This document shows positions 1 to 36,310 of a DNA stretch of 64,000 nucleotides, piece by piece. This DNA comes from Strigamia acuminata. Its lineage: Eukaryota. The translations under genes were made by a program, and so were the position numbers. Within the stretch, counting starts at the first letter, position 1. Every line of letters starts with the position of its first letter. Location of the stretch: the NCBI GenBank assembly GCA_949358305.1, contig OX442314.1:33046001-33110000 (forward strand). The letters are read 5' to 3'. Under the pieces are notes generated by a model. It did no database searches and was not told the DNA's origin. It saw only the letters and a list, made by a program, of their open reading frames with translations.

Positions 1-2
1 GA

Positions 3-2645
3 ATGGTGAACTTTTTTCACCGATTACTCAAGAATCTAGCAGTCATGACAGAACCTCTACGTCCTTTACTCAAAAAGGATGTGGAATTTATTTGGTCAGA
101 AATTCACCAAGAAGCTTTTGATCAAATAAAAGATGCTTTAACGAACGCAGAAACAATGGCCATGCCTGATTTGACAGAACCATTCATTGTGCATACTGAC
201 GCTAGTCGAAAAGGATTAGGCGCCGCGCTTATGCAAATGAGAGAAATCGATGATCAAAATATCGAAGTGCCTTGTGTTTATGCCAGCAGAAGTTTGCAAC
301 CTGCTGAGATAAATTACAGCGCCACAGAATTGGAGTGCCTAGCGGTAATCTGGGCATTACGTAAATTTCGACATTATTTGGAATTTACCACATTTATAGT
401 AAGGACTGACCATCAAGCATTAAAATGGTTGATGCAGTTAGACGAACCTGCCGGAAGGCTAGCACGTTGGCAAATGGAGCTGATGCGCTATTCTTTCGAA
501 ATACAATATATTAAAGGTCCACTAAATGTTTTAGCGGATACTTTATCCAGATCACCGATTGACAAACCGGAAAATCCTGAAGATGATGGAGATAATGATG
601 AATTATTATCTTACTGTCCATCACCGCAACGAAATTGGAAAATGGGAAAATTTCATGAGCTTCCTGTATCCGCACTAGAGGAAAAGGAAGATCACGAATT
701 CATCAACTATTGGACTAAAATTTATGACCCCTCTGAGGAATCAGATGACGTCATAAGAGCGCAAATTTCAAGGAAATTTCAAATTCCTTCGTCAAATGTC
801 TTAATAAAAGCATTTGTCGCCAAAATTGTAGAGCGTCTTGATTGTGAACCTCCCACAAGGAAAGACATAATTAAGGCCCAAAAAGAAGATAAAGTGTGCC
901 AATTGATGCGTAATTTTTTAAATTGTAATCAATTTCCGCCTGACGTCACAACGCGACTCCAGAGGAAACAATATAGAAAACACGCAACCACCTTCTTAAT
1001 TGAAGATGACTTATTAATGCAATTTCATCCCACAATGTCTGATGAATTGGGGGAGGATGGGAGAGCACTCAAAGTTTTTGTACCTCAGACATTGAAGTAT
1101 AAAATTATTTGGCTAATGCATGGCCACCCACTTTCTGGCCACCCAGGAATTGCAAGGACTCTTTATCGAGCACGCCGAATTTATACCTGGAAAGGCATGA
1201 AATCGGACATTACGAGATTCATTCGACATTGCGAGCGTTGTCAAGCTTGCAAACCTCGAACGAAAGGACAAATTGAAGCAGCGCAAATGGGTCCTTACAG
1301 CCCATTTGACTGCCTAAGTGTTGATTTGACCGGCCCGAAACCTCGGACGCGCAAAAACAACACACATATTTTAGTCATACTTGACGTGGCAACTCATTGG
1401 CCAGAATTATATCCAATGTGTAACCCCACTGCAGGAAAAGTAGCAAATTGCATTTATCACCTTTCCATGAGCATGGGATTCCCTCAAAAAATTATTTCTG
1501 ATAACGGCCCGCAATTTCGTGCCCAAGTCTTTAAAAAATTTTGTGAAAAGTTCAAGATGGTTCCAACACCAACTTCAACGTATCACCCACAGGCTAACCC
1601 GGTTGAAAGGGTTAACCGTGACATCAAATATCTTGTTGCAATTTATTCATCTGTTCATTCCAAATGGGACGAATATTTGCGTGAATTTGCATTTAGTTTG
1701 AGAACTACGGTGACGAGAGGAAGAGACTTCTCTCCCGCATTTCTTAACTTTTTTCGCGAACTCAGAGTACCTTGGGATCCAAGAATACCTGAAGGAATTT
1801 TGGTCGTAGATCCAAAAAACCCACATTTATACGTGCAAAAATTAGAAGCCGTTATCGCCGAAACATATCAGCACATGATGTCACATGTGTTAGATTTGCG
1901 TAGACGAGTGAATCTTAAAAAAAAAGGTGAGAAGTTCTCCAATTTTAAATTAAACGATTTAGTTTGGAGAGATTCTCATGTTTTGTCGAGCGCTGCCCGC
2001 GGCATTGCAGCCGGCATCGCTGATAAACGAACAGGACCTTATGTAATAACCAAAGTATTACAGAGAGGTTCAGTAGAATTGAGAAAGCTAGAAAATAACG
2101 AAATATTTCCAGCTGTCCATTCGTCGGAATTAACTCCGTATTTCCCGAGTTTCGATCAGGAAGTATGGCTCGAAGGCGAAGAAGTCGGTCAAAAGACTGA
2201 AAATATAATTAATACGTTAGATGACGATGAATTAAAGAAAATACCAGTCGATAATTCATCTAATCGCCCCCTGGAGTCCGATTTCGCACACAACGACGTT
2301 GAGCTCCGAGACAGTTTCAAAAAACTTGAAATTGCTAAAAAATTAAATAAAAAGGTGTTTTTAGAAAAGAAACAAAAAACATCTGAAAGAAAAGACTCAT
2401 CTGACTCAGTCTCCGATGACAATGAAAACGGCGATTTAAATACAATAAATCCCTCGCCGACAAAGAGATATAATCTTCGGACTCGTAAACCGAGAGGAAA
2501 GAACAACATGTGTCTTCTCCCCTCACTAACCTCGAGATCCAGGGATCAGCCTTATGACGTCAGGAGCAATTCCTCGAGTCCTAAGGTAACCAATCAACCA
2601 ATGAGATTGGATGACGTCGCTAACAGCGACGTTACCCAAACGTAA
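3..2645 (+). CDS. pol: Gypsy Pol, partial (RT C-terminus, RNase H, integrase)
   Basis: RNase H motifs HTDAS, YASRSL, YSATELECLAV, TDHQAL; integrase H..GHPG..CERCQ, VDLTGP, SDNGPQF, NPVER; GPY module. Confidence 0.96.
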   Translation: MVNFFHRLLKNLAVMTEPLRPLLKKDVEFIWSEIHQEAFDQIKDALTNAETMAMPDLTEPFIVHTDASRKGLGAALMQMREIDDQNIEVPCVYASRSLQPAEINYSATELECLAVIWALRKFRHYLEFTTFIVRTDHQALKWLMQLDEPAGRLARWQMELMRYSFEIQYIKGPLNVLADTLSRSPIDKPENPEDDGDNDELLSYCPSPQRNWKMGKFHELPVSALEEKEDHEFINYWTKIYDPSEESDDVIRAQISRKFQIPSSNVLIKAFVAKIVERLDCEPPTRKDIIKAQKEDKVCQLMRNFLNCNQFPPDVTTRLQRKQYRKHATTFLIEDDLLMQFHPTMSDELGEDGRALKVFVPQTLKYKIIWLMHGHPLSGHPGIARTLYRARRIYTWKGMKSDITRFIRHCERCQACKPRTKGQIEAAQMGPYSPFDCLSVDLTGPKPRTRKNNTHILVILDVATHWPELYPMCNPTAGKVANCIYHLSMSMGFPQKIISDNGPQFRAQVFKKFCEKFKMVPTPTSTYHPQANPVERVNRDIKYLVAIYSSVHSKWDEYLREFAFSLRTTVTRGRDFSPAFLNFFRELRVPWDPRIPEGILVVDPKNPHLYVQKLEAVIAETYQHMMSHVLDLRRRVNLKKKGEKFSNFKLNDLVWRDSHVLSSAARGIAAGIADKRTGPYVITKVLQRGSVELRKLENNEIFPAVHSSELTPYFPSFDQEVWLEGEEVGQKTENIINTLDDDELKKIPVDNSSNRPLESDFAHNDVELRDSFKKLEIAKKLNKKVFLEKKQKTSERKDSSDSVSDDNENGDLNTINPSPTKRYNLRTRKPRGKNNMCLLPSLTSRSRDQPYDVRSNSSSPKVTNQPMRLDDVANSDVTQT

Positions 2646-2687
2646 CTTCCGGTATTTAAACTGATCACTTCGCGTCTGAGTTCACTT
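2555..2687 (+). promoter_or_regulatory. Putative internal Pol II promoter of the Gypsy-1 accessory gene
   Basis: CRE TGACGTCA 2555 and TGACGTC 2612; CCAAT 2590 and 2598, ATTGG 2606; ETS-like ACTTCCGG 2645; TATTTAAA 2653; Inr-like TCACTT 2682, with its A 31 nt from the TATA T. Confidence 0.65.
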
Positions 2688-2855
2688 CGATCTCACACGT
2701 GTGTTAAGTGCTCATCTCCAAAAAACCAAAAACGAAACAATCGGATTATTTCAACGAGATTCTTCAATTGTAAGTAGTTTTTTCTTTGGAATTTTCCAAG
2801 GAAAAACTAATAAATTAATTTTCGTTTTTCTTTTCCATTTGGATTAGTCGTTCAA

Positions 2856-5697
2856 ATGGAAGAAGAGGAACCGAAAGAAGGAAGCGAAGCCGGCGCCAAC
2901 AGCCTCGAATTAGAAACAAATTCGACGTTGCTTGGTTCCGCAAACACCTCGAATGCATCCGTGGATGTCACCGAAGAGTCCGCCGAAGCGTCCGCCGAAG
3001 CTCAAGCCGCTCTGGCCGACGCTGCTGCCCGTTTGCCGGTCACGCCGCCCCGACCCCGCCTACGAGGAGGTCTCTTCGCCGATCCGAACGGCGAAACACG
3101 TGCACAGAGGCACGAACGGGTAAATAATTTAAAATAAAATTACCTTTCAGTCATGAAAAGTAATTAAAAGTGCATTTTCACTCGGAAAAAGCGAAAAGTT
3201 CGTTGGTAACGTCTTCGCAAGAAGGCGCCGCCATTTTTATCATCAGATGGCGCTGTGTCTCGTTTTTGAGGCGTTGCTACGGTAACGCTCCAACTTTGAA
3301 ACATAGCCATCGGGAACACCGTTTTTACACGATTTTTCAAATATTTTGAAAGATTAATAATTATAAACTGTTGAATGAAATCCTACTTGTGATTTTATTC
3401 GCTGAAAAACTCGAAAATAATTAATTTACACGAAAAAATGAATTTTAATTATTTCTTCGAATATTTTACAGATTATCAAGCTTCGGGAGACACATCTCGA
3501 GTTACATCCCGATGTGCCAACCGACCCTGGAATCTGGCGACATGCATTGCCACCAGAAATCATCAAGTCCAAGGGGAGATTGACGTTTTGGGCAGCTCGT
3601 CACAAGTTTTCCAAGGCGCTCAACAAGCGATGGGGCACGAAGCATCGGATTGCCCATCTAATTGAAGATTTTGGCCATCGCGACGCCCTCGAATGGGCCA
3701 TGAAGCGCGACACCCAAGGCCCACTACGGAACGTGTTGCTCGACTTCGCCTTCATAGTGATCGCTCAAGCGACGCGAGATCACCGCCGTTTCTTCAACGC
3801 TCCTGCGTGGGAGCGTCGACAGATTTTGGAGGACATCTTCCAACGTCTGGACCAAACAAAGGCCGAAATCGTGCGCCTTTACAACGAATCTTTCCGGCCA
3901 ACCACGGATGGAAAGAAACGTTGGGTACCGACAAGCCAGTCGGACATGCATCAACTCGCAATGGGCGGATGTTTGCGAAAAGATTTCGTGCCGAACCCGT
4001 ATCCAGAGCCTGAGCCCCGGATGCAGGTCGCTTCCACCATCCACGTGGCGCCACCGCGTTCCACGTCGAGGTCACGATCATCGAGGTCGCCCTACAGTGG
4101 CCGTCGCTCCTCCCCAACACAGTCGTCGGGGGAAGGCGCCATTGGAGGGTTACCTCCACTTCAGAAGACTCGTCATCGTTCACACCACCGACGCGAGTCG
4201 ACGCCGCCAAAAAGACATTCGAAGTCCGTGTCGAGACCCACATCCCGAAGCCGACCTCGAGTGCAATCGCGCCAATCTTCCGCGAGGAGTTCCATCTCGT
4301 CGCGTGAGGGAAAATCCAACGCTTCACAGCTGAGCGCTTCCACCTCCTCCTGCCAGATTGACTGGTCGGACGAGATCGAGAAGGAAGATCGTCGCATCGC
4401 CGCATTGCTAGCCGGTCAAGGAGACGTCAACGCTTCTTTACCGTTCGCTTGCCGTCCAGTCACCAGCGACATGCGACCAGACCCATCGGTGCCCGTGCCA
4501 CAAGTGACGACGGTCATTCGATTTGAGGGATCCCACACCTCTCCGGAGCCATTTCCAGCACAGGAGTGCGCTGATCTCTGGAGGCGATTCTCATCGTTTC
4601 CTGAGACAGCCCAGGCGATGTACCTCGCGAATCTAGACGCCTATCAACACGCTCAGATTCGCGAAGGTGAGAAGGGATGGCAGTGGCTTGCCCGAGAATT
4701 GGAGTCGTGCAAGTCCGACAAACAACTGCAACGAAAGTTGCAGAAGATGCACAGGAAGCTATCGGAGGGACTTCTTAGAATCCTGTTCCAAAGAGTCTTC
4801 CCTGACCTACGGATGGCTCTGGCGGCCGCCACTCGATTGTGGACCGTGCCGTTAGGGCTTCCACGAGCCTTGCTAGACGATTGGGAGTCAGTTCGCCCCG
4901 ATCCTCCAACAATGCTCGCCGAATTAACGCACCAAGCCGAGGCGACTGGCGAAACTCCGGCTGGATCCGCCATTCGACTACGGCAAGAATGGGCTACGCT
5001 GAAACAGCAGCGCGCAACGGAACGAGCAACCGCCCGTCCCGCTGGCGCACCACCGTCATCCGCAGCTCCACTCCACGCTGCCAGCACGGCAACGTCGAGT
5101 GTTTCCCGTGCAACCGAGGCACCTAGTTGCAACATCTCGTCTCCAATGGAATGGCTCGACAGCGACGATCGCGAGTTCGTCGTGCCCGTGGCCAGCAGTG
5201 CCAGACCAAAGACGCGCGCCCCGGCTTCGCGCAGATCCAGATCCCTCTCGATCTGCAAAAAGTCGCCGCCGCCACCGCCACCGCCAAAGGATTCGCCACC
5301 ACGAGATAGGGGATCAAATATGGCCACCTACCTCACCGCCTATCAACGTTTGCGCTCATTATACGCCTTTTGCTACATAACGAGCGCGACGAAAACGATT
5401 CTCCAGAACAGCGAGGATTTATGCAACCGAGTCCTCGCGTGGCTGGAGAACCACATCAAGGAACAACAGCCGTGGATCTTGCATCAACGCCTGGTGTTCG
5501 CCCGAATTACGCCTCAAGACCCGCAGGAGTATTTCGAGATGGGTTTCGGACGAAGGGATGATGTAGACCGCATAAAACAAGTGTGGCTCCACATCAACCC
5601 TGGCTTCCAGTCAGGACCGAACGCCGGCCGATCTTTGTGCACCGTCACAGAGCACAAAGATCCAAACGACCATTCAACGGACATGCTGCCTAAATAA
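2856..5697 (+). CDS. Spliced Gypsy-1 accessory protein, 829 aa (exons 2856-3119, 3472-5697); acidic N-terminus, Arg/Ser- and Pro-rich; unknown function, not env-like
   Basis: Donor CGG|GTAAAT (3120) and acceptor TTTTACAG|ATT (3471) are both phase 0 and join the 93-aa and 727-aa ORFs in frame; AT-rich intron; also a 5' UTR intron 2770-2847 (GTAAGT...TAG). Confidence 0.8.
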
Positions 5698-5869
5698 TTA
5701 GGGAACATGCCCATTCATTAAAAATAATTCCTTTTTTATTTTGTTTTACTGTAATAAAAAAGAATAAATATCCTGTTCCATTTTTACTTTGAAACCTTGT
5801 GTATTTATTCCTATACTTACCTGTCTCTTTTTGGAAAAGAATAAGATTCTTTCTTAAAAGAGGGGGAAG

Positions 5870-6852
5870 TGTGGTGACCTCAAATATTCGTATCTGAGTG
5901 CTCACCATATTTCCAAATTGTCTTATGATCATATCAAACATTCCTATATGTTTTGTTTCAATGTAAATTGAAATAAAACATACATTAATAAAATATAAAA
6001 CAAGACACAATATTACCCAAATAATATTGTGTTTTGCAGCAAGTTTTGGCCCAGCAACAGCGTCAACCAATCACGCTGCGGCGTGCATTGCTTTGATGAT
6101 GCTGCTAGGCGTGAGCCTGGGCGGAGCATCCCCTCCTCTCACGCGTGCCTGGCTCAATTGTTGCACACGACCCGAAGGCGGCCGTGTGTGATCTTTGTGC
6201 AACTCGTCATCTGCGCAGCTTTACTGAGCAGATTTAGGAGTGAGCCAAACGGTTTTGGCCCACTCTTCCCGCATTCTTGATTCTGCCTCCAAACTGTTCA
6301 CAACCGTGTCAAACTTATGCCAAAAACTGCTAAGTGTGATCTGTGATATTGGACAAATTGAGTTTCATTGCTGGTCTGTACCCATTGTACGGAATAGCGC
6401 TTTCATTGCTTGAATTACTAGGCGTAATTTAAGCCATTTCTGTGTGGAATTGACATAGAGCTTGCTCTGTCAATTTGTAGTTCTTTGTGTCGAGCTTGCT
6501 CCACAAAGGAATCTGTGTGTTAAGACGGATTGTTACGTCGAGCTTGCTCCGTAATAATCACTTTCACTGTGTGTGAGAAGTATTCTCGTGTCGAGCGTGC
6601 TCCACGAGGGTTTTAGTATATCTAGCAACGTATTTTAGCGTCGAGTTTACTCCGTTAAAATCCCGCGCTCACACGACGCCATCGACGCCATCTTGGAGCC
6701 AACGGTCAACTGTGAGTGTACATTTGAAGAAGAAGCCAGATCGACCCCAAACATTTTAAATAATACCTCCTGTGTATTTTGAACAATTAAAACTATCTAA
6801 TTTTTCCTTTACTCTGTGTAAAATCATTCCCCTAGACAAACATTTGGCCACA
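5870..6852 (+). repeat. 3' LTR of Gypsy-1 (about 983 bp)
   Basis: Starts TGTGG right after the PPT; CCAAT at 6067 and GC box near 6119. The 3' end is inferred from terminal CCACA only, since the partner LTR is outside the window. Confidence 0.7.
6363..6661 (+). promoter_or_regulatory. Array of RNA hairpins in the Gypsy-1 LTR (five bulged GAG-NNNN-CTC hairpins plus two upstream hairpins)
   Basis: Five stems with different sequences share one apical motif; within the listed stems the only non-Watson-Crick pairs are G-U on the + strand. Confidence 0.8.
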
Positions 6853-7149
6853 GAGTAGAAGTCCTGTACGGCATCTCACCGACGATTGCTTGATAAGTTT
6901 ACTCAATTTATTAAGTAAAAACCCGGATCGCCGCACTTTGAGGCACTAAACAGTCAGTCCAGATCTTTGACAAGTGGTCGATGGTGCGATGAGTCGCCAT
7001 TGAACTTGGTCATTTCAACCGTTTAGCAATTCTCTTCTTGGATAGGTTCCTACTTCCGATAGATTTCGAACAGAATAGATTCTCTCTTTACACAGACTCC
7101 ATTTAGAATAACTAGCTATCTCCTCACATGTAACAGGTTTCGAATAGTC

Positions 7150-7790
7150 CTTGTCCTCAATATGAGATCACAGATGTGGCCAAGTTGCGTTCCAAACTAT
7201 TTCCTTCTTGGCACTTGTGTCCATCGCTACAGGTCAATTTTACATGTGAGAGCATTCTCTTTTTTCTGAAATAAGCATTCGTCATTGCAGTTTTCAATGC
7301 CAGTCACGCTGTTTCGAACACGACGTTACACACCCCTTAGAAAGACCCTCCTTCTTAGCGTTTGGGCGGGCTTTCCCGGGGTGCCCAACGCATTCACATC
7401 GATCTTCTCTACAGGGAACATCTCCTAGAGATTTTGGGTTTCCATAGCACAAATTATTCTTCTTTGGTCTTCATCCATGCCGTGTCTTTGGTTCTACAGA
7501 TAGAAAACTCTCTCCTCTTTACTGAAAAGACCTCTTAGAAAGCTCCCTTCATTTCAAGATAGTTTACACACGGGTTGGGCTTCCCCGAGGAACCCGGTGT
7601 CTTCTTCACTCAGTCTGAAATTTTCTCTCTCTTATAGCTTGTCGGTCTTCGAGTTTTTCTATCTCTGAAAGATCCGAATTGGTCTGTATACCAATATCTC
7701 AGGCTTACATCTCAGTCAGGTGTTCTTCTTTGTAATAGCAATCTCGTTCAAAATAATCCCACTTGTCTGCAGTACATAGCGGTTTTTTTT
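7150..7790 (-). pseudogene. Possible heavily degraded retrotransposon gag/protease remnant
   Basis: Minus strand gives a frameshifted knuckle-like YCRQVG..FERDC near 7740-7780 and VAMDTSA (protease-like) near 7215-7232; many stops. Confidence 0.3.
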
Positions 7791-10452
7791 TCACTTAGTG
7801 ACAGGACAGGACAGAAGCAGTAGAAATAGATTTTGCTCCCCACCCTCCCACCCCATTTTCTTTTGGCGGGAGGGATTATTGAATAATAATAATCTAGACA
7901 GGTGTATAGAAATGATCAAATTCACCTTGGTCCCCTCTTCCTGCGACACAACAGAGTGCACGCCGTTGTGTGGCCGTTGGGTGGATGGGTGGTTTTCTTA
8001 TCTTTTTGAATTCTCTTAGCGACGGCATTCTATCCGGGTTGCGGATTCAAGCCCCACTCCGTGAGTTAGGGTACTTGCTGGTCCATGATCCGGCAAAAGT
8101 CCTTTGCCTTAACTTCAATCTTTCAGATAGCCTTTCTTTTCTTAGTTCTTGATGCACGCCCCTTCCTGTGTTTTGGGGTTTTTAGCTGGACAGTGGTCCA
8201 CATTACCAAAGAAATTCTCCTTTTTCTTGTATTTTACGATAGTTCCTAGTCTTGCTCTTGTGTAAGAAGGACGGGATACAGATTCCTTGCTCTCCTTCAT
8301 AATCGATATTATTTGTTGGCCCGTCCACCAAGGAGATGGGTCAAGTCGAGAGGTAGCCTGACCGCTATCACCTTTGGAGCTGCACAGCTCGATACGCACA
8401 ACAAGTGCTTGGCATCTTTAGCCTGCTTAAAGAGTTCGGGGTCCTTCCTTTTGCCTTGCTCAAACCCACATTACATCTTGAACTAACCACTACGATGAGT
8501 ACTAAAGACTTTGTGATGTCTCTGCGATCTACTCTCTGGAAAAATGGCTGTTGATATTTGAGTTTGCCCATTTGTTAATCTGTCACAAGTTTGATTTAAT
8601 GTAACATGCGTACATACTTTTATGTTATGTGTGTTGACTTATCGGTGGTTCATTGTGTGGTCGGTCACGTGTTTTTCTGTAAATGTGATGATATGTGCGC
8701 GGATTTGATCAGTTATTATATAATGTTTAGCAATTACCATCCAGCTTGAAAACGTATCTTAATATGATATTTGTTAGCTTGTGTATTGTTGTTTTGCACA
8801 CATGATGAGGTTAGAAGTGTTTGCAATTGATAAAATTATCAAATGCATAAGGCTGTATTATTATTTAGTCCTTTCTGGTTTATTTACTTTTTTTGTATGA
8901 TTGTAAAGAACAAATCAATAACAAGTGTCTTGATTTGTTCTAACCTTATATTTATTATGTATGAGATTTGAACTTACATTAGGTTTCAAATCACATGTTT
9001 TTATGCTGCTTTGGAAATAAAGCAAGATGGCCGCACGTTGCGAGTTTGCCAGCCATTTCAAAATGGTTTCATATTATTTCCGACCCGTATATTCCTTTAA
9101 TGGCGCCCACCATGATTAAAGCAACCATCCATGGCAGATGAATTCTCACGCATGGACGTAAAATCGGATTCAGACTCGGATACGGATTCAGATTCGTCAG
9201 GCACATCGATGAAACTATGACATTTATGATAAAACACCAAAGGACGATGATGTCGAGCAAATTCCGGAAGTGGATCTAGACGAGTTATTGAGTATCGAGC
9301 GCCCATATACGAAACGCCTCGAGAAGTTTCAACATATTAAGACATTGGATCCAGGTCACCGGAAAATCGCAAAAATGATGAAACGTCAAGAGCGTCGAAA
9401 AGCGAGTAGACAGAGAAAACGCCAAGAACGCGGAATGGAGAAAGCTAACAACACAGAAAAAGGCCAACAAAAAATGCAGCAGGAGGCAGAACGGTCTATT
9501 CGCAGAAACGCCCGACGTATTAAAGAGATTACCGATGAGCGGAAAAATTTAATACGGGGAGTCAAACCACATAGTCCAAAAGGCACAGAAGGCAGAGGAC
9601 TATTATTGAAGAAGCTACATAAGCCAATATGTGTTTTGAGAGCTTTGCTTTACAGCAAAGCCCAACTGTTGCCCCTTAATTTATTTGTATTTCTTTATTT
9701 TTGGGCTCAGTTTTAAACAATCCTTTTACTTGAAATGCCTATTGTTTTGAGCACGTGGGATTTTCTGCTCAGTTCTTGTTTATGTTTGGTTCATTAAACA
9801 CGTAAGTGTTTTTCTCTCGTTTTTCAATGCGTCTGCTTGGCCATTTGTTTTAGGCCTAGCTCTTGTAGGAAATCATGAATATGTTAGTCAAATGGTTTAC
9901 AGTCAGTAGGGTTTTAATGCGCATGTTTCAGGTTTAGTGCACGAATACATTGTGTATTCATGGCTTTCATGAGTTGTGTACTTTCTCCAATTCAAAGTAT
10001 ATGAGTCCGTCAATATTGGAGTTAGCGCAGTCTGCTGGCACTGTTATATATCGATAGGTGTTCAGTAATTACTAGAATATTAAGAGTTGTTTGGGCAAAA
10101 TGGTTCTTAGGTTGTTATTCAAGTTGATAACATGTATTCCGTATTTGTAATTGCTTTCCTCTGTTAATAATTGTATTTCAGTTGAGTCAATGTACTTAAT
10201 TATGTGCTCTGTTTACATGTATGATTTATTCTGAAGATTTGTGCTGATTTGTGTAATCACATGTAGTTTTGAGTCATGTGACCAGTTTTTTAGTCACTTG
10301 ACAAAGTTTTTCCACCATGAATAAACATGGCTGCTCAATTGGAGCAATTTTCTGCCAAAGCCAAAATATAGGACTCACCAGTGTTATTTCCACAAAAATC
10401 ATTAGCTCTCAACATGAGCATGCAGACCCACAATCTGCACGGGAACCTGAGA

Positions 10453-17170: not shown

Positions 17171-17574
17171 TATCCTCAGATTTTAGTTTTCCTGAAAATA
17201 TCCCATGATTATTATCAAGAATGAATAAGCCGAAGAGAAAAACAGAATTAATTAAAGTTAACGTAGTGACAGTTGAGACCAGCCGATGGCGCTTTTGTCG
17301 CATTCTTGGGAAATGCCCGGCAATTTTAAATAATTATTAATCGAAAATTTTATTAACACTGTAATAATGCCAGGTTATTGCGAAGTTTGAAAAATACTGC
17401 ATACCGTAGAAATGTTCGCGCATTAACAACGTCATACGGTTTTATCACGTTAACTCGACGCTCACGTCATAACGACGACTCCAAAACGTTTAACAAACGA
17501 ATTATATATAACCAACAACATCTACAAACATTATTATTAAATCATCCCATCTCTAGATTCAATCTCGTATAACA

Positions 17575-18789
17575 ATGGACATTCTACAAAACATCCAGCA
17601 ACAGCAAGTACGTTTATTCGCGTCCATTCCGTGGCTGGATGACCCGGAAATTAACACGATTCTTCCTCGCGAAGAAAACAACTCGATTTTTTCTCCTGGA
17701 TTGGACGAAAATGACTCGATTGTTCCTTCGGAATTACCCGAAGACATTCCCATTGTTTCTCCGATATTAGACGAAAACATTCCCATTGTTTCTCCGGTTT
17801 TGGTTGAAGTCAATACGCTCAAGAGAAAAAGAGAAAACGGCGAAGAAAACATTCTAAATGTTTCTCCAGTATTAGACGAAAACATTCCCATTGTTTCTCC
17901 GGAACTTAACAACGATCCAACGCGAGTGAAGATCGCCGTAGCTTGGCTTTATTGCAATGTCGAGAACTGCGATTACAAGAGCTGCAGACCGTACAACCTG
18001 CACCGTCACCACCGAAAACTGCACATCCCGCCCATCAAACCGGAGACTTGTTGCGACTTGAATTTCCTCACCAAGTTCGACTACTTCGAGCACGTGAAAG
18101 CGCAGCATGGAAACGGATATTTCTGCACCGAAACCGGCTGCGACAAATGGTTCGGCAAAAAAGTCACGCTGGAGCGCCATTTGTTCGTGCACTCGGGAAT
18201 CAAAAACATCCGTTGCGATTCGTGCGACTACAAAACGGCGCACGCGTTTAACATGAAGCGCCATTGCGAGAAGAAGCGTCATGTGTGCCGAAACGAAAAA
18301 GTCATGTGCATCGAAGATGGGCAGGACCAAGTGTCCAGCGACGAAAGTGGTGAAGACACGCAAGTCGTTATTGCTGAAATCAAGAAAGAAATCATTCCGG
18401 ACGAAGTGTCGCCATACGTTTGGTCGGATGTGGCAATTCCAGAACCCGCAACACTCGACGTAGAAGGTCGCAGAGGGAGGGGAAGACCACGGTTGAATGC
18501 CGTCGCGATTACGGATTTCACAAAACCGTTGAAGACGGAGAAAAAGAGTTTTAAAAATGTGTTAAAAAATGTTAAGGTTCCGACACCTCCAAAACCCGCA
18601 ACACGGCGGAGCAACAATCATTTCACGATTCCAAATGTGGTAGAACCGTTGAAAACGGAAGAAGATGAATGGGGGGCGGATGTATTCGATCATCCAGAGT
18701 TTAAAATTGCGTATTTGCGAAGATTAGGGTTAGTGCCAACTGATGAAAGTTCTGACTTTGCGCCTCCATTGGCTCATGGGACATTTTAA
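17575..18789 (+). CDS. Intronless C2H2 zinc-finger protein (about 4 fingers) with AT-hook and N-terminal DENIPIVSP-type repeats
   Basis: CNVENC..HHRKLH, CTETGC..HLFVH with SGIKNIRC linker, CDSC..H; RRGRGRPR AT-hook. Confidence 0.9.
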   Translation: MDILQNIQQQQVRLFASIPWLDDPEINTILPREENNSIFSPGLDENDSIVPSELPEDIPIVSPILDENIPIVSPVLVEVNTLKRKRENGEENILNVSPVLDENIPIVSPELNNDPTRVKIAVAWLYCNVENCDYKSCRPYNLHRHHRKLHIPPIKPETCCDLNFLTKFDYFEHVKAQHGNGYFCTETGCDKWFGKKVTLERHLFVHSGIKNIRCDSCDYKTAHAFNMKRHCEKKRHVCRNEKVMCIEDGQDQVSSDESGEDTQVVIAEIKKEIIPDEVSPYVWSDVAIPEPATLDVEGRRGRGRPRLNAVAITDFTKPLKTEKKSFKNVLKNVKVPTPPKPATRRSNNHFTIPNVVEPLKTEEDEWGADVFDHPEFKIAYLRRLGLVPTDESSDFAPPLAHGTF

Positions 18790-19179
18790 AAGTTTTTCAA
18801 TTAGAGAATTCAATGACGAAAAAAAAATTATAATCAAAAAAAAATTTTTAAAAAAAATGTGAAAAATCCAAAAATAAAAATATATAAAAATATTTCATTT
18901 CCATTTAATCTTAGCACTATCTCACTGTATTCTTCTGATTAAATGCTCTTCACCATCTCAAAACCGCACCGCCATCAAAACCCCACAATCTCGCAGATTA
19001 GATTTTCCATCCACGCATTGAATCTCCTTAACTATACAGGAACACAGATAAACACCGTTTCCACATAAATTAATCTCATCAGGCTTCCATCCAACCAATT
19101 AGACCATCTTGCACACGACCCACATGACGGTGGTCAAGAACCGCGACTGAAAAAGCAATCACTGCACATCAAAATCGAG

Positions 19180-19821
19180 ATGACGATGCAGCCCGCGATG
19201 ATAAATAAAAGGAAATGGCCGGGACTGACAGCGGGCTTGAACACTTACCCGAGCAAAAGACAAAAAACAACGAATTACGAGCCAGCCCCGGTGCTTTTAT
19301 CGGCCGATATGGACAAATGTAAACTCAGTTCGCCCGAACTTGAAGACTTATTGATCGACATACTGCACCGCGATCACGCTTTCCCGGACATTTCTATTTT
19401 ACCTGAAATCGATCTCGCCGGTTTTGCCGACGAGTCGGAATTTGAGGACGGCGGTTCAAGTGGGTCGTCTCCGGCCGATTCGCGGTTGAATTCGGACGTG
19501 CAAAGCGTGTTGTATACGGTTTTCGGACTGAATATGAAGCGGGAAGAGCAGGAGATGGTGATGCCGTTGGACGTGGAGCACCAGGAGAGACTTAAGGTGG
19601 AGAGGAAGCGGGAAAAGAATCGAGTGGCGGCTACGAAGTGTCGTACGAAGAAGCTGGAGACGATTGAGGTTTACGAGAAGAGAGTTGTGGAACTGAAAAC
19701 GATCAACAGGGAGTTGGAAAGCGATTTGTTCGCGTTGAAAGACGCGGTGCGGAGTTTGCAGATTCAGGTGGCGAGGCACGTTAATGCGGGCTGTAAGATG
19801 ATGGTATGTGATATGATATGA
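19180..19821 (+). CDS. Jun: Divergent Jun-family bZIP transcription factor, intronless
   Basis: KLSSPELEDLLI (Jun KLASPELERLII), PLDVEHQERLKVERKREKNRVAATKCR basic region, HVNAGC C-terminus. Confidence 0.9.
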   Translation: MTMQPAMINKRKWPGLTAGLNTYPSKRQKTTNYEPAPVLLSADMDKCKLSSPELEDLLIDILHRDHAFPDISILPEIDLAGFADESEFEDGGSSGSSPADSRLNSDVQSVLYTVFGLNMKREEQEMVMPLDVEHQERLKVERKREKNRVAATKCRTKKLETIEVYEKRVVELKTINRELESDLFALKDAVRSLQIQVARHVNAGCKMMVCDMI

Positions 19822-20626: not shown

Positions 20627-23600
20627 TCATTTGCAAATCAAACTCGTCAAAGGCGAGAGAAAATAAACCAGCAACACGATAATCACAATGAGAACGATGA
20701 CCAAAGCACTGCCCAAAAGCGTCGCCAAAATACTCAATCCTCCCGCCGCGTCTTCGTCGTCCGCGACCGTCCCGTTCTCAAACCTCGCGTTGCCCACGTA
20801 ATCCCTCTTCATCTACACAAAAACAATTGCAGAAAAACACAAACCAAAACCACACATCCAACTTACTCTACACTTGCCGCTTTGGCACACGCCTTGCGCG
20901 AAATTGCAGCTCACTCCGTCCGGTTGCCACAATCGGATCCGGCCTCTGCTTTTCGTGCGCAGTCTCGCGGCCGGCACGCACACTCCATTGTTTATGCAGC
21001 AGATGTTGCAGCCGTATCTCCAGCCCACACACAAGCATTCTTGCAGTTGAAACTGAGAGCAAGTTTTGTCGTTGCATTTACCGCGGATACACACTCCCAG
21101 TCCGTTATTGCACACGGATCCGTCCGCTTTGGATATCGGAGCGGGACAAAGCGAATCGACACCGTTGCAGTACGAGTTCTTCATGCACTCGTTGTCGGAA
21201 CACAACTACGAAAACCCTATTGATGACAAATGGCTGCAATGCAAACACTTAAAACGGTGGTTAGCAGCGAATGACCTCATATTGGTTCCGTGTTCGGCAA
21301 GAAAATCGGTTTGTTTTGGTGGTAAAAGGTGAAGCCGACGCACAGGGGCCAATGTGGGTGATTTCTATTTTCTAACCAACTGTTTTTAATGTGCTTTGCA
21401 TGTGATGTGGTCACTCACATAACAAATATCTCAGAATGTCAGTGCATCTGAAAATCCATGTGTTATGTGAGCAGGTAGTGGAAGAATGAACAACTTTGAA
21501 ACACTGACTGCAAATGGCGTGTTTTTTTTAATGCGCACCAACGCAGTATCGGTGAACTGAATTTTTACCCCGCGCTTTATTAGGGGCCCGCTCATTAATT
21601 GTTACGGTTGGTATATGGGAAAACTCAATTATTCAAATTTTGCAATAAAAAATTAAAATTTTACCAAATTTGCCATTAAAAAATTAAAATTTCACTAAAT
21701 TTTCATTAAAAAATTAAAATTTAACTAAACTTTCATTAAAAAATTAAAATTTCACTAAATATTCCATTAAAAAATTAAAATTTCACTAAATATTCCACTA
21801 AAAAATTAAAATTTTACCAAATTTGCCATTAAAAAATTAAAATTTCACTAAATTTTCATTAAAAAATTAAAATTTAACTAAACTTTCATTAAAAAATTAA
21901 AATTTCACTAAATATTCCATTAAAAAATTAAAATTTCACTAAATATTCCACTAAAAAATTAAAATTTTACCAAATTTGCCATTAAAAAATTAAAATTTCA
22001 CTAAATTTTCATTAAAAAATTAAAATTTAACCAAACTTTCATTAAAAAATTAAAATTTCACTAAATATTCCATTAAAAAATTAAAATTTCACTAAATATT
22101 CCACTAAAAAATTAAAATTTTACCAAATTTGCCATTAAAAAATTAAAATTTCACTAAATTTTCATTAAAAAATTAAAATTTAACTAAACTTTCATTAAAA
22201 AATTAAAATTTCACTAAATATTCCATTAAAAAATTAAAATTTCACTAAATATTCCACTAAAAAATTAAAATTTTACCAAATTTGCCATTAAAAAATTAAA
22301 ATTTCACTAAATTTTCATTAAAAAATTAAAATTTAACTAAACTTTCATTAAAAAATTAAAATTTCACTAAATATTCCATTAAAAAATTAAAATTTTACCA
22401 AATTTGCCATTAAAAAATTAAAATTTCACTAAATTTTCATTAAAAAATTAAAATTTAACTAAACTTTCATTAAAAAATTAAAATTTCACTAAATATTCCA
22501 TTAAAAAATTAAAATTTCACTAAATATTCCACTAAAAAATTAAAATTTTACCAAATTTGCCATTAAAAAATTAAAATTTCACTAAATTTTCATTAAAAAA
22601 TTAAAATTTAACCAAACTTTCATTAAAAAATTAAAATTTCACTAAATATTCCATTAAAAAATTAAAATTTCACTAAATATTCCACTAAAAAATTAAAATT
22701 TTACCAAATTTGCCATTAAAAAATTAAAATTTCACTAAATTTTCATTAAAAAATTAAAATTTAACTAAACTTTCATTAAAAAATTAAAATTTCACTAAAT
22801 ATTCCATTAAAAAATTAAAATTTCACTAAATATTCCACTAAAAAATTAAAATTTTACCAAATTTGCCATTAAAAAATTAAAATTTCACTAAATTTTCATT
22901 AAAAAATTAAAATTTAACTAAACTTTCATTAAAAAATTAAAATTTCACTAAATATTCCATTAAAAAATTAAAATTTCACTAAATATTCCACTAAAAAATT
23001 AAAATTTTACCAAATTTGCCATTAAAAAATTAAAATTTCACTAATTTTTCATTAAAAAATTCAAATTTAACTAAATTTTCATTAAAAAATTCAAATTCCA
23101 TTAAATGTTCCATTAAAAAAAATCAAAAATTACTAATAGTTCCATTAAAAAAATTGTCCAATTTCATTTCATCACTTTTCCCATCCCACGGTGCATTGAA
23201 ACACTTTTATCATTTCTGCCATTACTCTATTTTAAATTTTCCCGCGCTTTATTAGAAACCTAATGGGGGTTCGTGCACAATAAGAAGAAACAATAATCTT
23301 TTTCCCTTCTCTTAATTATTCCTCAAACGAACTAAACCAAAAGACAAACGCACAAAACATCATTGCAGATTCTTCCACCGCCATCCTCGACACAATATCT
23401 CACCATCTTATCAGCAGCCGCGACCAAAGTACAGTCCTGCGTACAACACGGTCCATTCCTCGGCGAACACTGCGCACTATTGATCAAATGACATTCCTGT
23501 TGATTACCCAAACCTCCTTTGGGGACGCAGCACAAGTCCGTTTCAATACACTGCGACTTATAACCGCAATCACACTGCTCTCCCTTCTCACGAATAGCTA

Positions 23601-25701
23601 AAACAAATAAATTATAATTATCATTACAAATAAAAAGTTTAACAACTCTACCATTTCCACACACATACTGGCCCAGTTCGTCTTGGGCCAGAAAGCATTT
23701 GGCCTTGATCGCAAGCACCTTGGCTATGGAGTCAATGCTACATGGTGAAAATTTGTTGTTATTTGATTGATTCGAGTTCTCTATAGTGTCGGCCATTAAA
23801 TAAGAACCTCCCTTGCTGGCTGGAGGAGAACATCTCTCATTCTTCGGGTCGTGGTCACTGCCAAAGCTGTGTCCGAGCTCGTGCGTCAGCGTTAGACTGT
23901 TCAGAGCGCGCGGCATGCGGCCGGATGAGCCTTCAACGGTGACCACGGCGGCGTTGTAGCTTCGCGGCGGGCGCGAGGAGATCCTCTTTTGACATACGCC
24001 GCCCGCGTGGTTTCTTTTCACACTGGCTGTGTATGCCAGGCCGAGAACATTGCCGGGGAAAACGCGGTGAACGAAGCAGATGGCCATGCACACGTCGCTG
24101 GCGTCATGGAGGGCAAAAGCGGATAGGAAGTCTTCGGAAGATAGATCTTCGCGGTGCATTTTGTAGTTGGCATCGTCTTGGCTTTTCCATACGACCACGT
24201 TAGAAACCTGCAAGAGTAGATGAATGATAAGTGATAATACTACTATAATACTGCTCGTGGAATTGAATGTGTGAGTTTATTTTGGACTAAAAATGCATTA
24301 TTTATATTGAAAGCATCGCTTTTGCAATTAAAAGGTGTTTTTTTTATATACCGGTATACAGTAAAAATGATCATTTCAGCATTTTTTTGCGTAAAATTCC
24401 ATTTTTACACATAAATTTGTGTGATAACCTATTTTTACACGTTAAATTGCAGTTTTTTGTGAAAATCTCCATTTTTGCACGTTAAATTACAGTTCTATGT
24501 GTCAAATTCCATTATTACACGTAAAGTTACAGTATTTTTGGATAAAATTCTATTTTTCACAAAAAATTGAATTTTTTGGACTAAAAAGTCTATTTTTTGG
24601 GCTAAAAAATCTATTTTTTGGGCTAAAAAATCTATTTTTTATGCTAAAAAGTCTATTTTTTGGGCTAAAAAGTCTATTTTTTGGGCTAAAAAGTCTATTT
24701 TTTGGGCTAATAAGTCTATTTTTTGGGCTAAAAAGTCTATTTTTTGGGCTAAAATGTCTATTTTTTGATCTAAAATCTTTATAATTCCTAACACCATCTA
24801 TTCCTGACAATACCTGGAACCCGATGCCGTCCGGCCTTCCGTCATAATCAAAATCCGTACTCCGAAAAATGCTATCAGCAACCGTCATCAGCACAATCAT
24901 TTCGTGAATCGCCATCTCAATCGTGTGGTCCGTCGCCTTTTGATAAAAAGTGTGATCCGCCACCAATTTAACCGTACAAATCTTCCTCCTTTCCTGCTGC
25001 TTAATCCACAACTCTCTCCTGAACGACGTCCCAATCGGCGACTCCAAATTCGAAATATCCGACTCCAGCTCGTCCTCCGAGATCTTCGGCCCGCGCTTGA
25101 AATCCAACCGAAATGGAAGACAATCTCCAGTCGCGCATATCAGCGCCGTTATATTGATATCCGACCGCCGGTAAATCAGCGAATCGAAAGCCAGAGAATC
25201 GATCACCGGCAGATATGTCGTCCACGGCTCGATGTAATAAATCTCGTCCGTCAACGTGATTATTCCTTCAAACGTTCCCCGCATAACGTGCCCTTGTACG
25301 TGCGAATATTTCTCGCCTTTGACCACGCCATTGACCAGTCTTTGCAACACGTACGCGGCGGGAATCGTGTTTCTCGTCCCGTTGCCGTCGTGAGTGATCA
25401 CGAGTGCATTGGCGGCTAATAACGGAGATCCGGAGCGGAGTTTTAGGTGAAATTCACGTCCGAAAGCGCGGAAACTGAAGAAGATGTCGCCTTGCGATCG
25501 CTTGGAGTTGAAGTCGTGCAAGGGAAACCCGATGCGAATTACCGGCTCGTAGTACGTGATGAAGTTACTGAGGTGTCCGAAGTGGCCGGTGAATCCGTCG
25601 GCGGAGCAGTGGAAGTAACGGATGGATAGAAAGACGGAGAGGAGTAGAAAAGACGGCCCAAAACTGCCATTGGCACGCTGAGGCAATTTTGGGCGCGCCA
25701 T
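20627..25701 (-). CDS. ADAM10: ADAM10/Kuzbanian-like metalloprotease-disintegrin, about 720 aa; exons 25701-24814, 24207-23652, 23597-23404, 21205-20867, 20812-20627
   Basis: Hydrophobic N-terminus, prodomain, LVADHTFY, catalytic HELGHSFGSDHD, CGN..EQCDCG disintegrin, CSPRNGPCC, Cys-rich domain, TM; all junctions GT-AG and phase-compatible. Orthology to ADAM10 versus ADAM17 not resolved. Confidence 0.9.
21640..23150. repeat. AT-rich satellite, 30-31 bp monomer with 153-bp higher-order repeat, in ADAM intron 3
   Basis: TTTACCAAATTTGCC recurs at 21660, 21813, 21966, 22119, 22272, 22394, 22547, 22700, 22853, 23006. Confidence 0.95.
24550..24778. repeat. 21-bp minisatellite in ADAM intron 1
   Basis: GGGCTAAAAAGTCTATTTTTT tandem units. 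Confidence 0.9.
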
Positions 25702-26099
25702 TCATCTCTGCGACAAATGGGAATATGGAATCGAGGTGCGGGTATGTGAGTATTGTTGCCGCAGTAAGAGAAAACGGAAATTATTTATTGAGTTTTTTTC
25801 AGTTTTCCTGCATGGCACGTACTAAAAATTATCGAAAATTGTAGTTTTTGTAATTTTAAATTTTGTTTGAAAAAATAAGAATGTTCACATTAGGTCAAAT
25901 TCTAATTTTTGTGTATATCGTATTTTATCTTATTGTGCGCGGGCCGCCAATAGACAGCTTTCAAGTGAATTTATGATGTGTAATTAATGAGCGGATCTCG
26001 ATTATAACGCGGGGTTATATAGTAGAGAACCGCGCACTAATGAAAAAGTGTAATGATGGACTTTGGCAAAAGTATTGGAATGTAATTTAACGATTTATT

Positions 26100-32574: not shown

Positions 32575-32757
32575 TATTCTCTACTCTTTTATTTTATCAA
32601 GTATTTTTTTAAATAATAAAGTTTGAATTGAATTAAATGAGCTTCACTGCAGCACACGTTGGCGCGACAACGTTTCTAAGACGTATTTCTTGAGATGCTT
32701 TATACAAAGCAATGCAGCGTAGTATTTGCACACATTTGCAAACAAACCCAACCCACT

Positions 32758-34746
32758 ATGCAATTTGTTTTGGGCGTGGCGAGTCTCGAAAACGCTTCAT
32801 TCGTCAAAAGCGCAGTTTGTTTGTGGAAGCGCCACCCGATCGCATGGCACGAAACAATGAAATCACACAAGAAACAAATGTGGTTAAAATTCGAAAAGGA
32901 TGTTTGCGACCAAGTGGACGTCTTGATCATTCCCGAAATTTGGAAACCTCAGCTGCGCGCAATGGTCAAACATGTTGGCAGGGAACTGCGCGATTGGCTC
33001 AACCAATTAACGAAACACGTGTTCGATCGTCTTTCCGAACCGTTGATGAAATCCCTGACGGAATGCACGCAATGGACGATGCACGGGAAATTAAACGCAA
33101 CGGAAACAGCGCGAGTTCTTTCGAGATTAGAAAGTTTGACGATCAAAGTCCGATTCGACATTGCCTGCATGTTTGCCATCGCGGACGAAGTCGAGCATCT
33201 CTGGAAAGCATACACCGATTCTGACGACGAAAAGACACCGGTGCAAAGTCCGATGTATAAGTTTTGGAAAACCGTTTCGTTCGATGTCGATTCACCTCAA
33301 ATTACCGACGACATGAAATCGGAAGTGTTTTTACGGAGCGTGATCGACCAAAACCAAAGTGCGGTCGAATATCTCTGGTCGATAATGCGAGAGGACGAAA
33401 GAACGGCGTTGGTCGCCAAACTTGTGCGGGAGGAAAGCAAACTTGAGCGGTTGATCGAGCGGATAATATCCGATCACATTCGCACTAAAGGCAACGGTTG
33501 TAGTCGTGGAACCGGCGTCGTGTGTTTTCTTCTTTCTCGGATGACGAAAAACCAAGTTGATGCCACGATGGCGTCGCGATTCGGATCTCATGTTTGTCTC
33601 GTGTTGATTTTCGACTTTTTTACCGTGGATTTGTTCGCGTCATCTCTACGCCCGATTTTGGATGCGATTTCCAGTTATTCCTTTTACGAATTACTTCTGT
33701 GGATGAGTGATTTGAGTTTTCTGACTAATTGCCTGCATTTAGATACGATTAAGAGATGTTTTGCACGTTTATGGGTAGAAGCTCCGCCCCGTCTCAGGGG
33801 TTATGTCGAGGGTCATAAATTTGTGGTGGTTGTGAGTCAATTGGTCAGTTCTGAGGATTCGGGGAATTTGGATTTACTGTTGAAGGACTTTGGCGTTGAA
33901 AAGAGCGGGATAATCTTGTCCAAGTGTCTGTTCCTACTTCTTCGAGAGGAATATCCGTTTAATTGGGATTTTGTAGAGACCCTGGCGAAGAAATACATCA
34001 CGTCGAGCGAGGAAATTGCAACTTATCAAACGAGTTGTTCGAAAATCGCTTACAGAGTTTGCGGTGCTTTGATCGAGAACAAAAGTCCGTTCGACAAATT
34101 TCTTAATTTTTGTTTCGCGAATAATCGAACGGAAATAGACAAGTTCGTAAAATGTTTTGGGCTTTGTTATTACACCACAGACAAGAGAAAAACAACGATC
34201 ATGGATGAACTGCTCTGGCCACTAGTAAGAACGTATTTTAATCCTATAAACGAGAAAGAACACAACTCTGTAATAACGTGTTACACGTGTATACAATCCA
34301 ACGATCTCGCGAATTTAGAATTCCTATTTCGGGAGAAAACAGTGGCGGAGATCAGACGAATTCTGTCTCTTTGTTTCGGCCGTATTGTCACTTTCGATCG
34401 TACCTCGACGGCTTTGGATTTAATCGAAGTCGTTGCAAGAAAGTTCCTTACGACAGAAGACGAATTGGACGCTTTTAAGGAACATTGCTCCCGTTTCGCG
34501 TACCAAGTTTGCACCGCTATTTTCGACGTTGAAGATGCCGATCATTGGCCATTCATCGACGAATATTTGAATTTTTGTTTTAAAAATCCTCAGCAACTTC
34601 GAGGTTTCAAAACGAGTTTACCGTTTGATTATTTCACCAAAATGCACGACGAGCACGACTATTTAATGGTCGCCGAGATGCTGATTTGGAGCGGCTTAAC
34701 TGCACATGAAATTGCACATTCCCTCGTAACTTATTCACCAAGATAA
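32758..34746 (+). CDS. Uncharacterised intronless protein with N-terminal BC-box-like motif (paralogue 1; an upstream in-frame ATG exists at 32695)
   Basis: Long ORF, clear paralogy to 39916-41922 from MQFVL onward; motif WTMHGKLNATETA..RFDIACMF. Confidence 0.8.
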   Translation: MQFVLGVASLENASFVKSAVCLWKRHPIAWHETMKSHKKQMWLKFEKDVCDQVDVLIIPEIWKPQLRAMVKHVGRELRDWLNQLTKHVFDRLSEPLMKSLTECTQWTMHGKLNATETARVLSRLESLTIKVRFDIACMFAIADEVEHLWKAYTDSDDEKTPVQSPMYKFWKTVSFDVDSPQITDDMKSEVFLRSVIDQNQSAVEYLWSIMREDERTALVAKLVREESKLERLIERIISDHIRTKGNGCSRGTGVVCFLLSRMTKNQVDATMASRFGSHVCLVLIFDFFTVDLFASSLRPILDAISSYSFYELLLWMSDLSFLTNCLHLDTIKRCFARLWVEAPPRLRGYVEGHKFVVVVSQLVSSEDSGNLDLLLKDFGVEKSGIILSKCLFLLLREEYPFNWDFVETLAKKYITSSEEIATYQTSCSKIAYRVCGALIENKSPFDKFLNFCFANNRTEIDKFVKCFGLCYYTTDKRKTTIMDELLWPLVRTYFNPINEKEHNSVITCYTCIQSNDLANLEFLFREKTVAEIRRILSLCFGRIVTFDRTSTALDLIEVVARKFLTTEDELDAFKEHCSRFAYQVCTAIFDVEDADHWPFIDEYLNFCFKNPQQLRGFKTSLPFDYFTKMHDEHDYLMVAEMLIWSGLTAHEIAHSLVTYSPR

Positions 34747-34922
34747 AGAATTGTCATTAAAACGATGTTTTTATTGTAAAAAATATCTGTTTTCTTACGA
34801 AAAATCATGAAAAATAAAGTTCTTAATGAATACATTCACCGCCCTCTATAAACAATTCTCACACAAAATATTTCTTCACCTTGGTAACAGCAGAAAACAA
34901 CCGAATTGCAACAGTAGCGACA

Positions 34923-35582: not shown

Positions 35583-35929
35583 TTTGATTTGTGCTCATGT
35601 GAAGATGTGGTGGAATTCCTCAAGACGGACGTAGGATGGATAGAGGCGTAAATGTCCGGTCTATTTGGGCGCCCAGCGCAGGGAAAGTTGCGTGGGTAGA
35701 ATTTTGAAAACGTCGATCTTGAGGGACGAATGGCTTTTTTTTTTTTTTTTTTTATACGAAAAAAAAAAATGAAATGAATTATATGAAAACATGTGTGGAA
35801 ATATATGATTTCAGTTTGATTTCAGCTGGAACTGAATTGAAAACTTGTATTTTAAGCGAATAAATGCTTCATGTTGAAATGAGAAAATGCTACCCCTTAA
35901 ACTTCACTGCGGATACCTTCGTTTGATCA

Positions 35930-36310
35930 AAAAATGGCTGTATACAGTTTTTTGTTAAAAATTGGCTGTTTGCAGGTAAAAATTGGCTGTTTGCAGGTAA
36001 AAATTGGCTGTTTCGGTTAAAATAGGCTGTTTTCGCTCAAAAATAGGCTGTTTTCGCTCAAAAATAGGCTGTTTCCGCTCAAAAATTAGATTTTTCGGTC
36101 AAAAATGGGCTTTTTTCGGTCCCAATGGGCTGCTTTTGCTCAAAAATGGGCTGTTTTTGCTCAAAAATTGGATTTTTCGGTCAAAAATCGGATTTTTTAG
36201 TAAAAAGTTGACTGTTTTCTGTCAAAATTGGATTTTTTGGTCAAAAATTGACTGTTTGAGCAAGAAATTGGATTTTTTGGTCAAAAATTGACTATTTGAG
36301 CAAGAAATTG
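35930..36310. repeat. 21-bp minisatellite
   Basis: AAAATAGGCTGTTTTCGCTCA-like units. Confidence 0.8.

What the first reader, a model, noticed from the sequence alone, without database searches (positions are those of the whole stretch)
2856..5697. Intron-containing 829-aa non-env accessory gene inside a Gypsy retrotransposon
Seen: two ORFs between integrase and PPT join exactly in frame across a 352-nt GT-AG intron. The protein has no signal peptide or TM, has Arg/Ser-rich tracts (RSTSRSRSSRS, RHRSHHRRES, RPTSRSRPR) and blocks that look folded but that I cannot assign. Inference: keeping sense-strand introns means the genomic RNA must avoid splicing while the subgenomic mRNA is spliced, which suggests Rev/Rex-like control; the basic tracts suggest RNA binding.
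Basis: partly seen in the sequence, partly recalled or inferred. Interest (0 to 1): 0.78.

Follow-up and report, generated by a model that had tools for sequence, protein, structure and literature searches.

The report
Spliced orphan gene in centipede retrotransposon
A Gypsy jumping gene, probably of a centipede, carries an extra intron-containing gene with no known relatives that is kept intact by selection and likely helps the element control how its own RNA is processed, much as complex retroviruses do.

Summary
Exon 2856-3119, a 352-nt GT-AG intron and exon 3472-5697 give 829 codons. Contigs of two runs of one study hold the precise joint at about 3% of local depth, most likely one or two intron-less DNA copies among roughly 60. 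Exon-2 differences are 16 of 22 synonymous (pN/pS about 0.16). The protein has no membrane stretch and no relative among 1.84 billion proteins. The host is probably a centipede near Strigamia.

Rev-like function is untested. CERV is a precedent, but cis-only intron retention (Copia EVD) explains the same data. Non-env third ORFs are known, and this scan noted orphan ones on other DNA. Verdict: new variant of a known kind.

The parts
3..2645 (+). 3' part of Gypsy pol (RNase H, H2C2 zinc finger, integrase core, long C-terminal tail); the 5' part lies outside the window
   Evidence: Pfam PF17917, PF17921, PF00665; best hit Strigamia pol, 56% over 200 aa
2555..2690 (+). Predicted internal promoter: TGACGT 2555 and 2612, CCAAT/ATTGG 2590, 2598, 2606, ETS-like 2646, TATA-like 2653, Inr-like about 2682-2688
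   Evidence: motif scan and sequence; motif names recalled; start site not mapped
2770..2847 (+). Predicted 78-nt 5'UTR intron (GTAAGT...TTAG) with an AATAAA at 2809
   Evidence: one of only two plus-strand GTRAGT in 1-8000; not seen spliced
2820..2877 (+). Predicted 25-bp hairpin pairing the intron-1 pyrimidine tract with the AUG and first codons
   Evidence: P(unpaired) 0.0001 for the tract and 0.0085 for AUG; hairpins of 24 bp or more also occur in control DNA
2856..3119 (+). ORF3 exon 1, 88 codons, acidic N-terminus, GC 0.61
3120..3471 (+). 352-nt GT-AG intron, GC 0.32, folds as an array of hairpins (z -5.5), AATAAA at 3133
   Evidence: precise joint in X1 and X2
3472..5697 (+). ORF3 exon 2, 741 codons: helical blocks at about 3559-3966, 4549-5031 and 5308-5607; RS-rich tract 4054-4341 (16 RS/SR, 22 K+R, 3 D+E in 96 aa); basic/Pro tract 5194-5307
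5753..5768 (+). Two AATAAA, candidate ORF3 polyadenylation signals; they overlap the antisense pyrimidine tract
   Evidence: not tested
5749..5820 (-). Predicted 72-nt antisense intron (CAG|GTAAGTAT...TTTTTTATTACAG) between ORF3 and the PPT
5856..5869 (+). Polypurine tract
5870..6851 (+). 3' LTR (TGTGG...CCACA) with donor GTGAGT 6712 and ATTAAA 6786
   Evidence: depth about 2-3x the internal region; right end inferred from the terminal inverted repeat, since the 5' LTR is outside the window

Best explanation
This is a genuine, spliced, selectively conserved non-envelope accessory gene of a multi-copy Gypsy family, likely transcribed from its own internal promoter, whose Arg/Ser-rich product likely acts in the nucleus to help the element's full-length RNA pass two introns and several poly(A) signals unprocessed. 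Shown: reading frame, precise splice joint, purifying selection, no TM, no relatives. Inferred: (1) a short capped, twice-spliced mRNA from about 2684 makes the protein early; (2) in LTR-started RNA a hairpin hides the intron-1 pyrimidine tract and the AUG; (3) the RS tract engages splicing/export machinery, CERV/Rev-like in logic only; (4) rare leaks of spliced RNA were reverse-transcribed into the one or two intron-less copies; (5) an antisense spliced RNA from the 3' LTR may damp ORF3. Confidence in the gene itself is about 0.93; the figure given is for the RNA-regulator function.
For: Joint at the exact GT..AG ends in 2 of 2 runs, at 1.5 and 2.1 times the median depth of the other joints, against about 60-67 such units at 3116. 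16 of 22 exon-2 differences are synonymous against 0.30 expected, p 4e-5. All 12 of 15 indel rows shown lie at 5743 or beyond, outside the ORF. RS tract with 16 RS/SR dipeptides and net charge about +19. Promoter motifs and a 5'UTR intron; acceptor/AUG hairpin. Precedents: CERV, a Gypsy-encoded nuclear protein from spliced mRNA that is needed for gRNA export (PMC10309623); Tor internal promoter (PMC4402516).
Against: No functional datum. No NLS pattern matched, and the 4 NES-like matches come from a loose pattern. No RNA-binding family was found. EVD keeps its intron without any Rev. The second Gypsy element's ORF3 is unrelated, has no RS tract and no evident coding intron, so third ORFs here need not serve splicing. 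Folding is element-wide (14 of 59 windows at z <= -3), and hairpins of 24 bp or more are about as dense in control DNA (15 in 12 kb and 29 in 17 kb, against 11 in 6.9 kb). Only 40 of 204 difference rows were visible. The antisense frame that shares third positions scores 13 of 22, and pol scored only 5 of 10 (p 0.12).
Confidence: 0.42

Rival explanations
1. Intron retention is cis-only (weak donor, hairpins, U1 shielding of poly(A) signals, as in Copia EVD), and the protein is a transcriptional activator or anti-silencing factor made early from the internal promoter, like foamy virus Tas or Bet.
For: Each of the 3 sense donors has a poly(A) hexamer 13-74 nt downstream. EVD lacking its intron makes only short RNA (PMC5580714), which would explain rare intron-less copies. 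Acidic exon 1 (13 D/E in the first 50 aa). Strigamia methylates its LTR elements, and a Copia family there captured an MBD (PMC6673714). The foamy internal promoter and tas appear in PMC7828637.
Against: No DNA-binding or chromatin domain was found. AATAAA is common in AT-rich introns, and no chance estimate was made. An RS tract points to RNA processing (recalled).
Confidence: 0.33
2. The protein is a cytoplasmic particle or condensate scaffold (RNA chaperone or Gag partner) that aids packaging or cell-to-cell transfer.
For: Basic disordered tracts between helical blocks; a poly-Pro tract in both elements' ORF3s.
Against: No Gag-like, zinc-knuckle or TM feature.
Confidence: 0.13
3. A captured host or DNA-virus gene riding as a passenger or serving the host.
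For: GC 0.57-0.61 against 0.40 in pol; a self-contained cassette with promoter, introns and poly(A) signals.
Against: 0 hits among 1.84 billion representatives, while a neighbouring host gene hits a Strigamia protein at 76%. Selection acts across the family. Element 2's ORF3 is also GC-rich (0.55).
Confidence: 0.09
4. Artefact: chance frames and a chance deletion.
For: The joint is flagged 'between: not known'; both runs are from one study and may be the window's source.
Against: ORF probability 5e-12, synonymous excess, and a joint exact at both splice sites.
Confidence: 0.03

Closest known systems
CERV of Cer1 (C. elegans Gypsy/Ty3), PMC10309623
   Same: Gypsy-encoded, non-env, orphan-like multi-domain protein with flexible linkers, made from a spliced mRNA, in an element whose genomic RNA keeps splice sites.
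   Different: cerv shares exons and frame with gag and has a Cys finger and a G-like domain. This gene lies after pol with its own predicted promoter and has an RS tract. No CERV-like hit appeared, and function is untested here.
Non-env ORF3s of bdelloid Vesta/Juno (PMC5408684) and plant additional ORFs such as Grande gene23 (PMC7264820)
   Same: Family-specific extra ORF between pol and the 3' LTR; gene23 is nuclear and has its own promoter.
   Different: Rotifer ORF3s are recognisable enzymes or TM proteins, and gene23 is antisense. This one is sense, 829 aa, unassignable, and has an intron inside its coding sequence.
Oikopleura Tor3b/4b internal promoter (PMC4402516) and foamy virus internal promoter (PMC7828637)
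   Same: Third gene expressed from a promoter at the end of or after pol.
   Different: Tor's is an unspliced env. Foamy tas/bel-2 are retroviral. The promoter here is predicted only.
Arabidopsis Copia EVD splicing/termination switch (PMC5580714)
   Same: A sense intron retained in full-length RNA, with poly(A) signals near donors.
   Different: The EVD intron serves gag and needs no accessory protein.

Membership tests
Ty3/Gypsy LTR retrotransposon | RNase H then integrase in pol; PPT and TG...CA LTR | tested here: met
Ty3/Gypsy LTR retrotransposon | gag, RT, 5' LTR and target-site duplication | not testable with these tools
   outside the window; no genome held
Env / fusogen ORF3 | signal peptide and TM anchor | tested here: not met
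   maximum KD19 of 0.52 (exon 1) and 1.16 (exon 2); acidic N-terminus
Env / fusogen ORF3 | homology to viral fusion proteins | tested here: inconclusive
   no Pfam or phmmer hit; fold searches rest on a weak model of one block
Rev/Rex/CERV-like export regulators | made from a spliced mRNA of the element | tested here: met
   precise joint; indirect, since the runs look like DNA
Rev/Rex/CERV-like export regulators | arginine-rich RNA-binding tract | tested here: inconclusive
   basic RS tract present; binding not tested
Rev/Rex/CERV-like export regulators | NLS and leucine-rich NES | tested here: inconclusive
   no classical NLS pattern; 4 loose NES-like matches
Rev/Rex/CERV-like export regulators | structured response element retained only in unspliced RNA | tested here: inconclusive
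   intron z -5.5, but folding is element-wide; no Rfam match at gathering score
Rev/Rex/CERV-like export regulators | required for export of unspliced RNA | not testable with these tools
   needs an experiment
CERV protein family | shares exons with gag; Cys-loop M domain and G domain | tested here: not met
   the gene lies 3' of pol with its own ATG; 10 scattered Cys; no hit
Recently captured host gene | homologue outside the element | tested here: not met
   the host's own full gene set could not be searched

The most novel reading that the evidence does not exclude
Centipede Gypsy elements have independently evolved a complex-retrovirus programme: an internal promoter drives a spliced RS-domain protein of a new family that licenses unspliced genomic RNA, opposed by a spliced antisense RNA from the 3' LTR whose introns are shared by two divergent Gypsy families with unrelated third genes.
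Probability: 0.25. Interest if true: 0.82.

Novelty: new variant of a known kind. Interest (0 to 1): 0.57.

Why it matters
Among the papers my searches returned, CERV was the one LTR-retrotransposon protein shown to export unspliced RNA. A second, unrelated candidate, with its intron, promoter, hairpin and natural intron-less copies all mapped, makes a standing question testable with small reporters: how do retrotransposons keep sense-strand introns? The antisense introns shared by two families with unrelated third genes point to a regulatory layer that I did not find described.

Tried and rejected
Homologue searches for exon 2 were all empty: Pfam 0 families; 0 of 7995 candidates, lengths 413-1315 aa only; 0 among 1.84 billion representatives; Atlas no usable hit; PDB sequences best E 1.2; 0 of 61 metagenome and 0 of 3 viral stretches. 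Exon 1 was scanned only against Pfam and the window. Related loci for the two pols: 0 of 46 and 0 of 3, so there is no cross-family alignment, covariation test or proper dN/dS.

AlphaFold without an alignment gave pLDDT 41 for exon 2 and 50 for its first 183 aa. Foldseek found no E <= 0.001. VIA best Z was 6.4 with rmsd 3.8 over 96 residues, background level for helices. The middle and C-terminal blocks were not folded alone. Rfam gave 3 weak matches, all below gathering score.

No RNA holder was listed; this is no evidence on expression. No genome was held. A close-up of 2540-3740 in the runs was not obtained, so splicing of intron 1 and the full difference list stay open.

Rejected ideas: (a) the plus-strand ATACTTACCTG at 5813 as a U1 mimic, because strong acceptors lie 72 and 78 nt downstream on the minus strand; (b) an antisense protein gene, because minus-strand ATG ORFs are 51-203 aa shadows and frame-breaking indels sit in 5743-5781; (c) homology between the two ORF3s (best E 0.8).

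Full report
1. Observation. The window opens inside a pol frame (3-2645) with RNase H, H2C2 and integrase domains in Gypsy order. Behind it, an ATG at 2856 opens 88 codons up to CGG|GTAAAT at 3120. A 352-nt intron (GC 0.32) ends at TTTTACAG 3471, and 741 codons run to TAA 5697: 829 in all, phase 0. PPT 5856-5869 and an LTR 5870-6851 follow. The quoted basic tracts are present, and no 19-residue stretch exceeds hydropathy 1.16.

2. Is it spliced? Two public runs of one study hold the stretch; their kind is unrecorded. They behave like DNA: all 30 bins are covered, the LTR is 2-3 times deeper, and joints cluster at one depth per run (medians 271 and 114). Among the 15 of 18 joints shown, one skips exactly 352 nt with GT..AG ends in both runs, at depth 409 and 235. 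That is 1.5 and 2.1 units, or 2.5% and 3.1% of the depth at 3116, which itself equals about 60-67 units (summed contig depth is only a rough copy number). I read this as one or two genomic copies made from spliced RNA. If the runs were RNA, it would be direct splicing evidence. Caveats: the tool marks the joint 'between: not known', and the runs may be the window's source.

3. Is it selected? Of 40 of 204 difference rows shown, 22 fall in exon 2: 16 synonymous against 0.30 expected (pN/pS about 0.16, p 4e-5). The other five frames give 3-13 of 22, the 13 being the antisense frame that shares third positions. Pol gives 5 of 10 (p 0.12) and exon 1 gives 0 of 1. All 12 of 15 indel rows shown lie outside the ORF.

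4. What is the protein? It has an acidic N-terminus, three predicted helical blocks, an RS tract (16 RS/SR, 22 basic and 3 acidic in 96 aa) and a basic/Pro tract. No family, relative or fold was found for exon 2; the models are weak (pLDDT 41 and 50). An ADAM-like gene in the window matches a Strigamia maritima protein at 76%, the only hit at E <= 1e-40 among 1200 candidates, and the best pol hit is also Strigamia. The host is therefore probably a related centipede, and a recently captured conserved host gene should have been found.

5. Overlapping the end of pol are CRE-, CCAAT-, ETS-, TATA- and Inr-like motifs (2555-2690; names recalled), then a predicted 78-nt 5'UTR intron (2770-2847), with no ATG before 2856. 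A 25-bp hairpin (2820-2877) pairs this intron's pyrimidine tract with the AUG and first codons, and splicing would remove one arm. Such hairpins are not rare in control DNA, and 14 of 59 element windows fold at z <= -3, so this is suggestive only. Each sense donor has a poly(A) hexamer 13-74 nt downstream. An LTR donor at 6712 leaves an env-style LTR-to-2848 splice possible. On the minus strand, AGGTAAGTA occurs 3 times in 64 kb (0.23 expected, 0 of 100 shuffles reach 3; the pattern was chosen after seeing it). All three lie between ORF3 and the 3' LTR of the window's two Gypsy elements, two with strong acceptors 72 and 78 nt on. The second element (53012-63808; LTRs identical over 623 nt) has an unrelated 424-aa orphan ORF3 with a CxxC-CxxC motif.

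6. Mechanism. Full-length RNA must cross two introns and several poly(A) signals, and about 97% of depth keeps intron 2. The best reading (0.42) is an early, internally promoted RS-domain protein that acts on the element's RNA together with cis hairpins. The main rival (0.33) is cis-only retention with a transcriptional or anti-silencing protein. A packaging scaffold (0.13), a passenger gene (0.09) and an artefact (0.03) follow. None of these functions was tested.

7. Literature seen. PMC10309623: abstract and sections 9 and 15; CERV is needed for Cer1 RNA export. PMC5580714: abstract and section 8. Passages only: PMC5408684 (ORF3 occurs 35 times and 'intron' not at all), PMC7264820, PMC4402516, PMC7828637, PMC6673714, PMC13524379. 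Eight searches returned, by title and abstract start, no account of this gene, of a myriapod Gypsy third ORF, or of antisense introns beside the PPT. The library lacks most subscription journals, and I read no supplements, where repeat annotations could mention it. HTLV HBZ and Grande gene23 are named; the role of RS domains in splicing is recalled.

8. Verdict. Non-env third ORFs are a known kind and recur in this scan's notes on other genomes. What is different here is the size, the coding intron with natural intron-less copies, and the shared antisense introns. New variant of a known kind; interest 0.57.

Noticed in passing
window 53012-63808: Complete second Gypsy element: LTRs identical over 623 nt, 4-bp target duplication, 2-kb leader, gag 55700-57460, pol 57415-61194, and an orphan ORF3 61416-62690 (424 aa, CxxC-CxxC, weak Anti-TRAP match E 0.006) preceded by CCAAT and ETS-like motifs.
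   Followed up: partly
window 63088-63165 and 62827 (minus strand); 5749-5820 (minus strand): Antisense splice donors, two with strong acceptors, next to the PPT in both Gypsy elements; suggests a shared spliced antisense RNA from the 3' LTR.
   Followed up: partly
window 62980-63175 (plus strand): A sense donor GGG|GTAAGT in element 2's 3'UTR with acceptors at 63052 or 63175, the latter touching the PPT.
   Followed up: no
window 17557-19821, 44491-45201, 50898-51569: Apparently intron-poor, divergent C2H2, Jun-like bZIP, TBP-like and TFIIB-like ORFs, with a Copia element lying between the last two; possibly an endogenous large DNA virus or giant transposon.
   Followed up: no
window 32680-34746, 40006-41922; 34830-38202: Two paralogous 640-690-aa ORFs and three related 200-250-aa ORFs; the one tested of each kind had no clear Pfam family.
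   Followed up: no
window 45530-50397: Copia element split by a 450-bp insertion with 158-nt terminal inverted repeats (47730-48184).
   Followed up: no
window 803-2977: A joint skipping 2173 nt at about 7 depth units in run X1 only: a possible deletion derivative lacking integrase and the ORF3 start.
   Followed up: no
window 3229-3260: CGCCATTTT and CAGATGGCGC motifs (YY1- and CTCF-like, names recalled) form a hairpin inside intron 2; the intron's CpG o/e is 2.1.
   Followed up: no
window 23332-25802 (minus strand): ADAM10-like gene, 76% identical to a Strigamia protein, interrupted by minisatellite arrays.
   Followed up: partly
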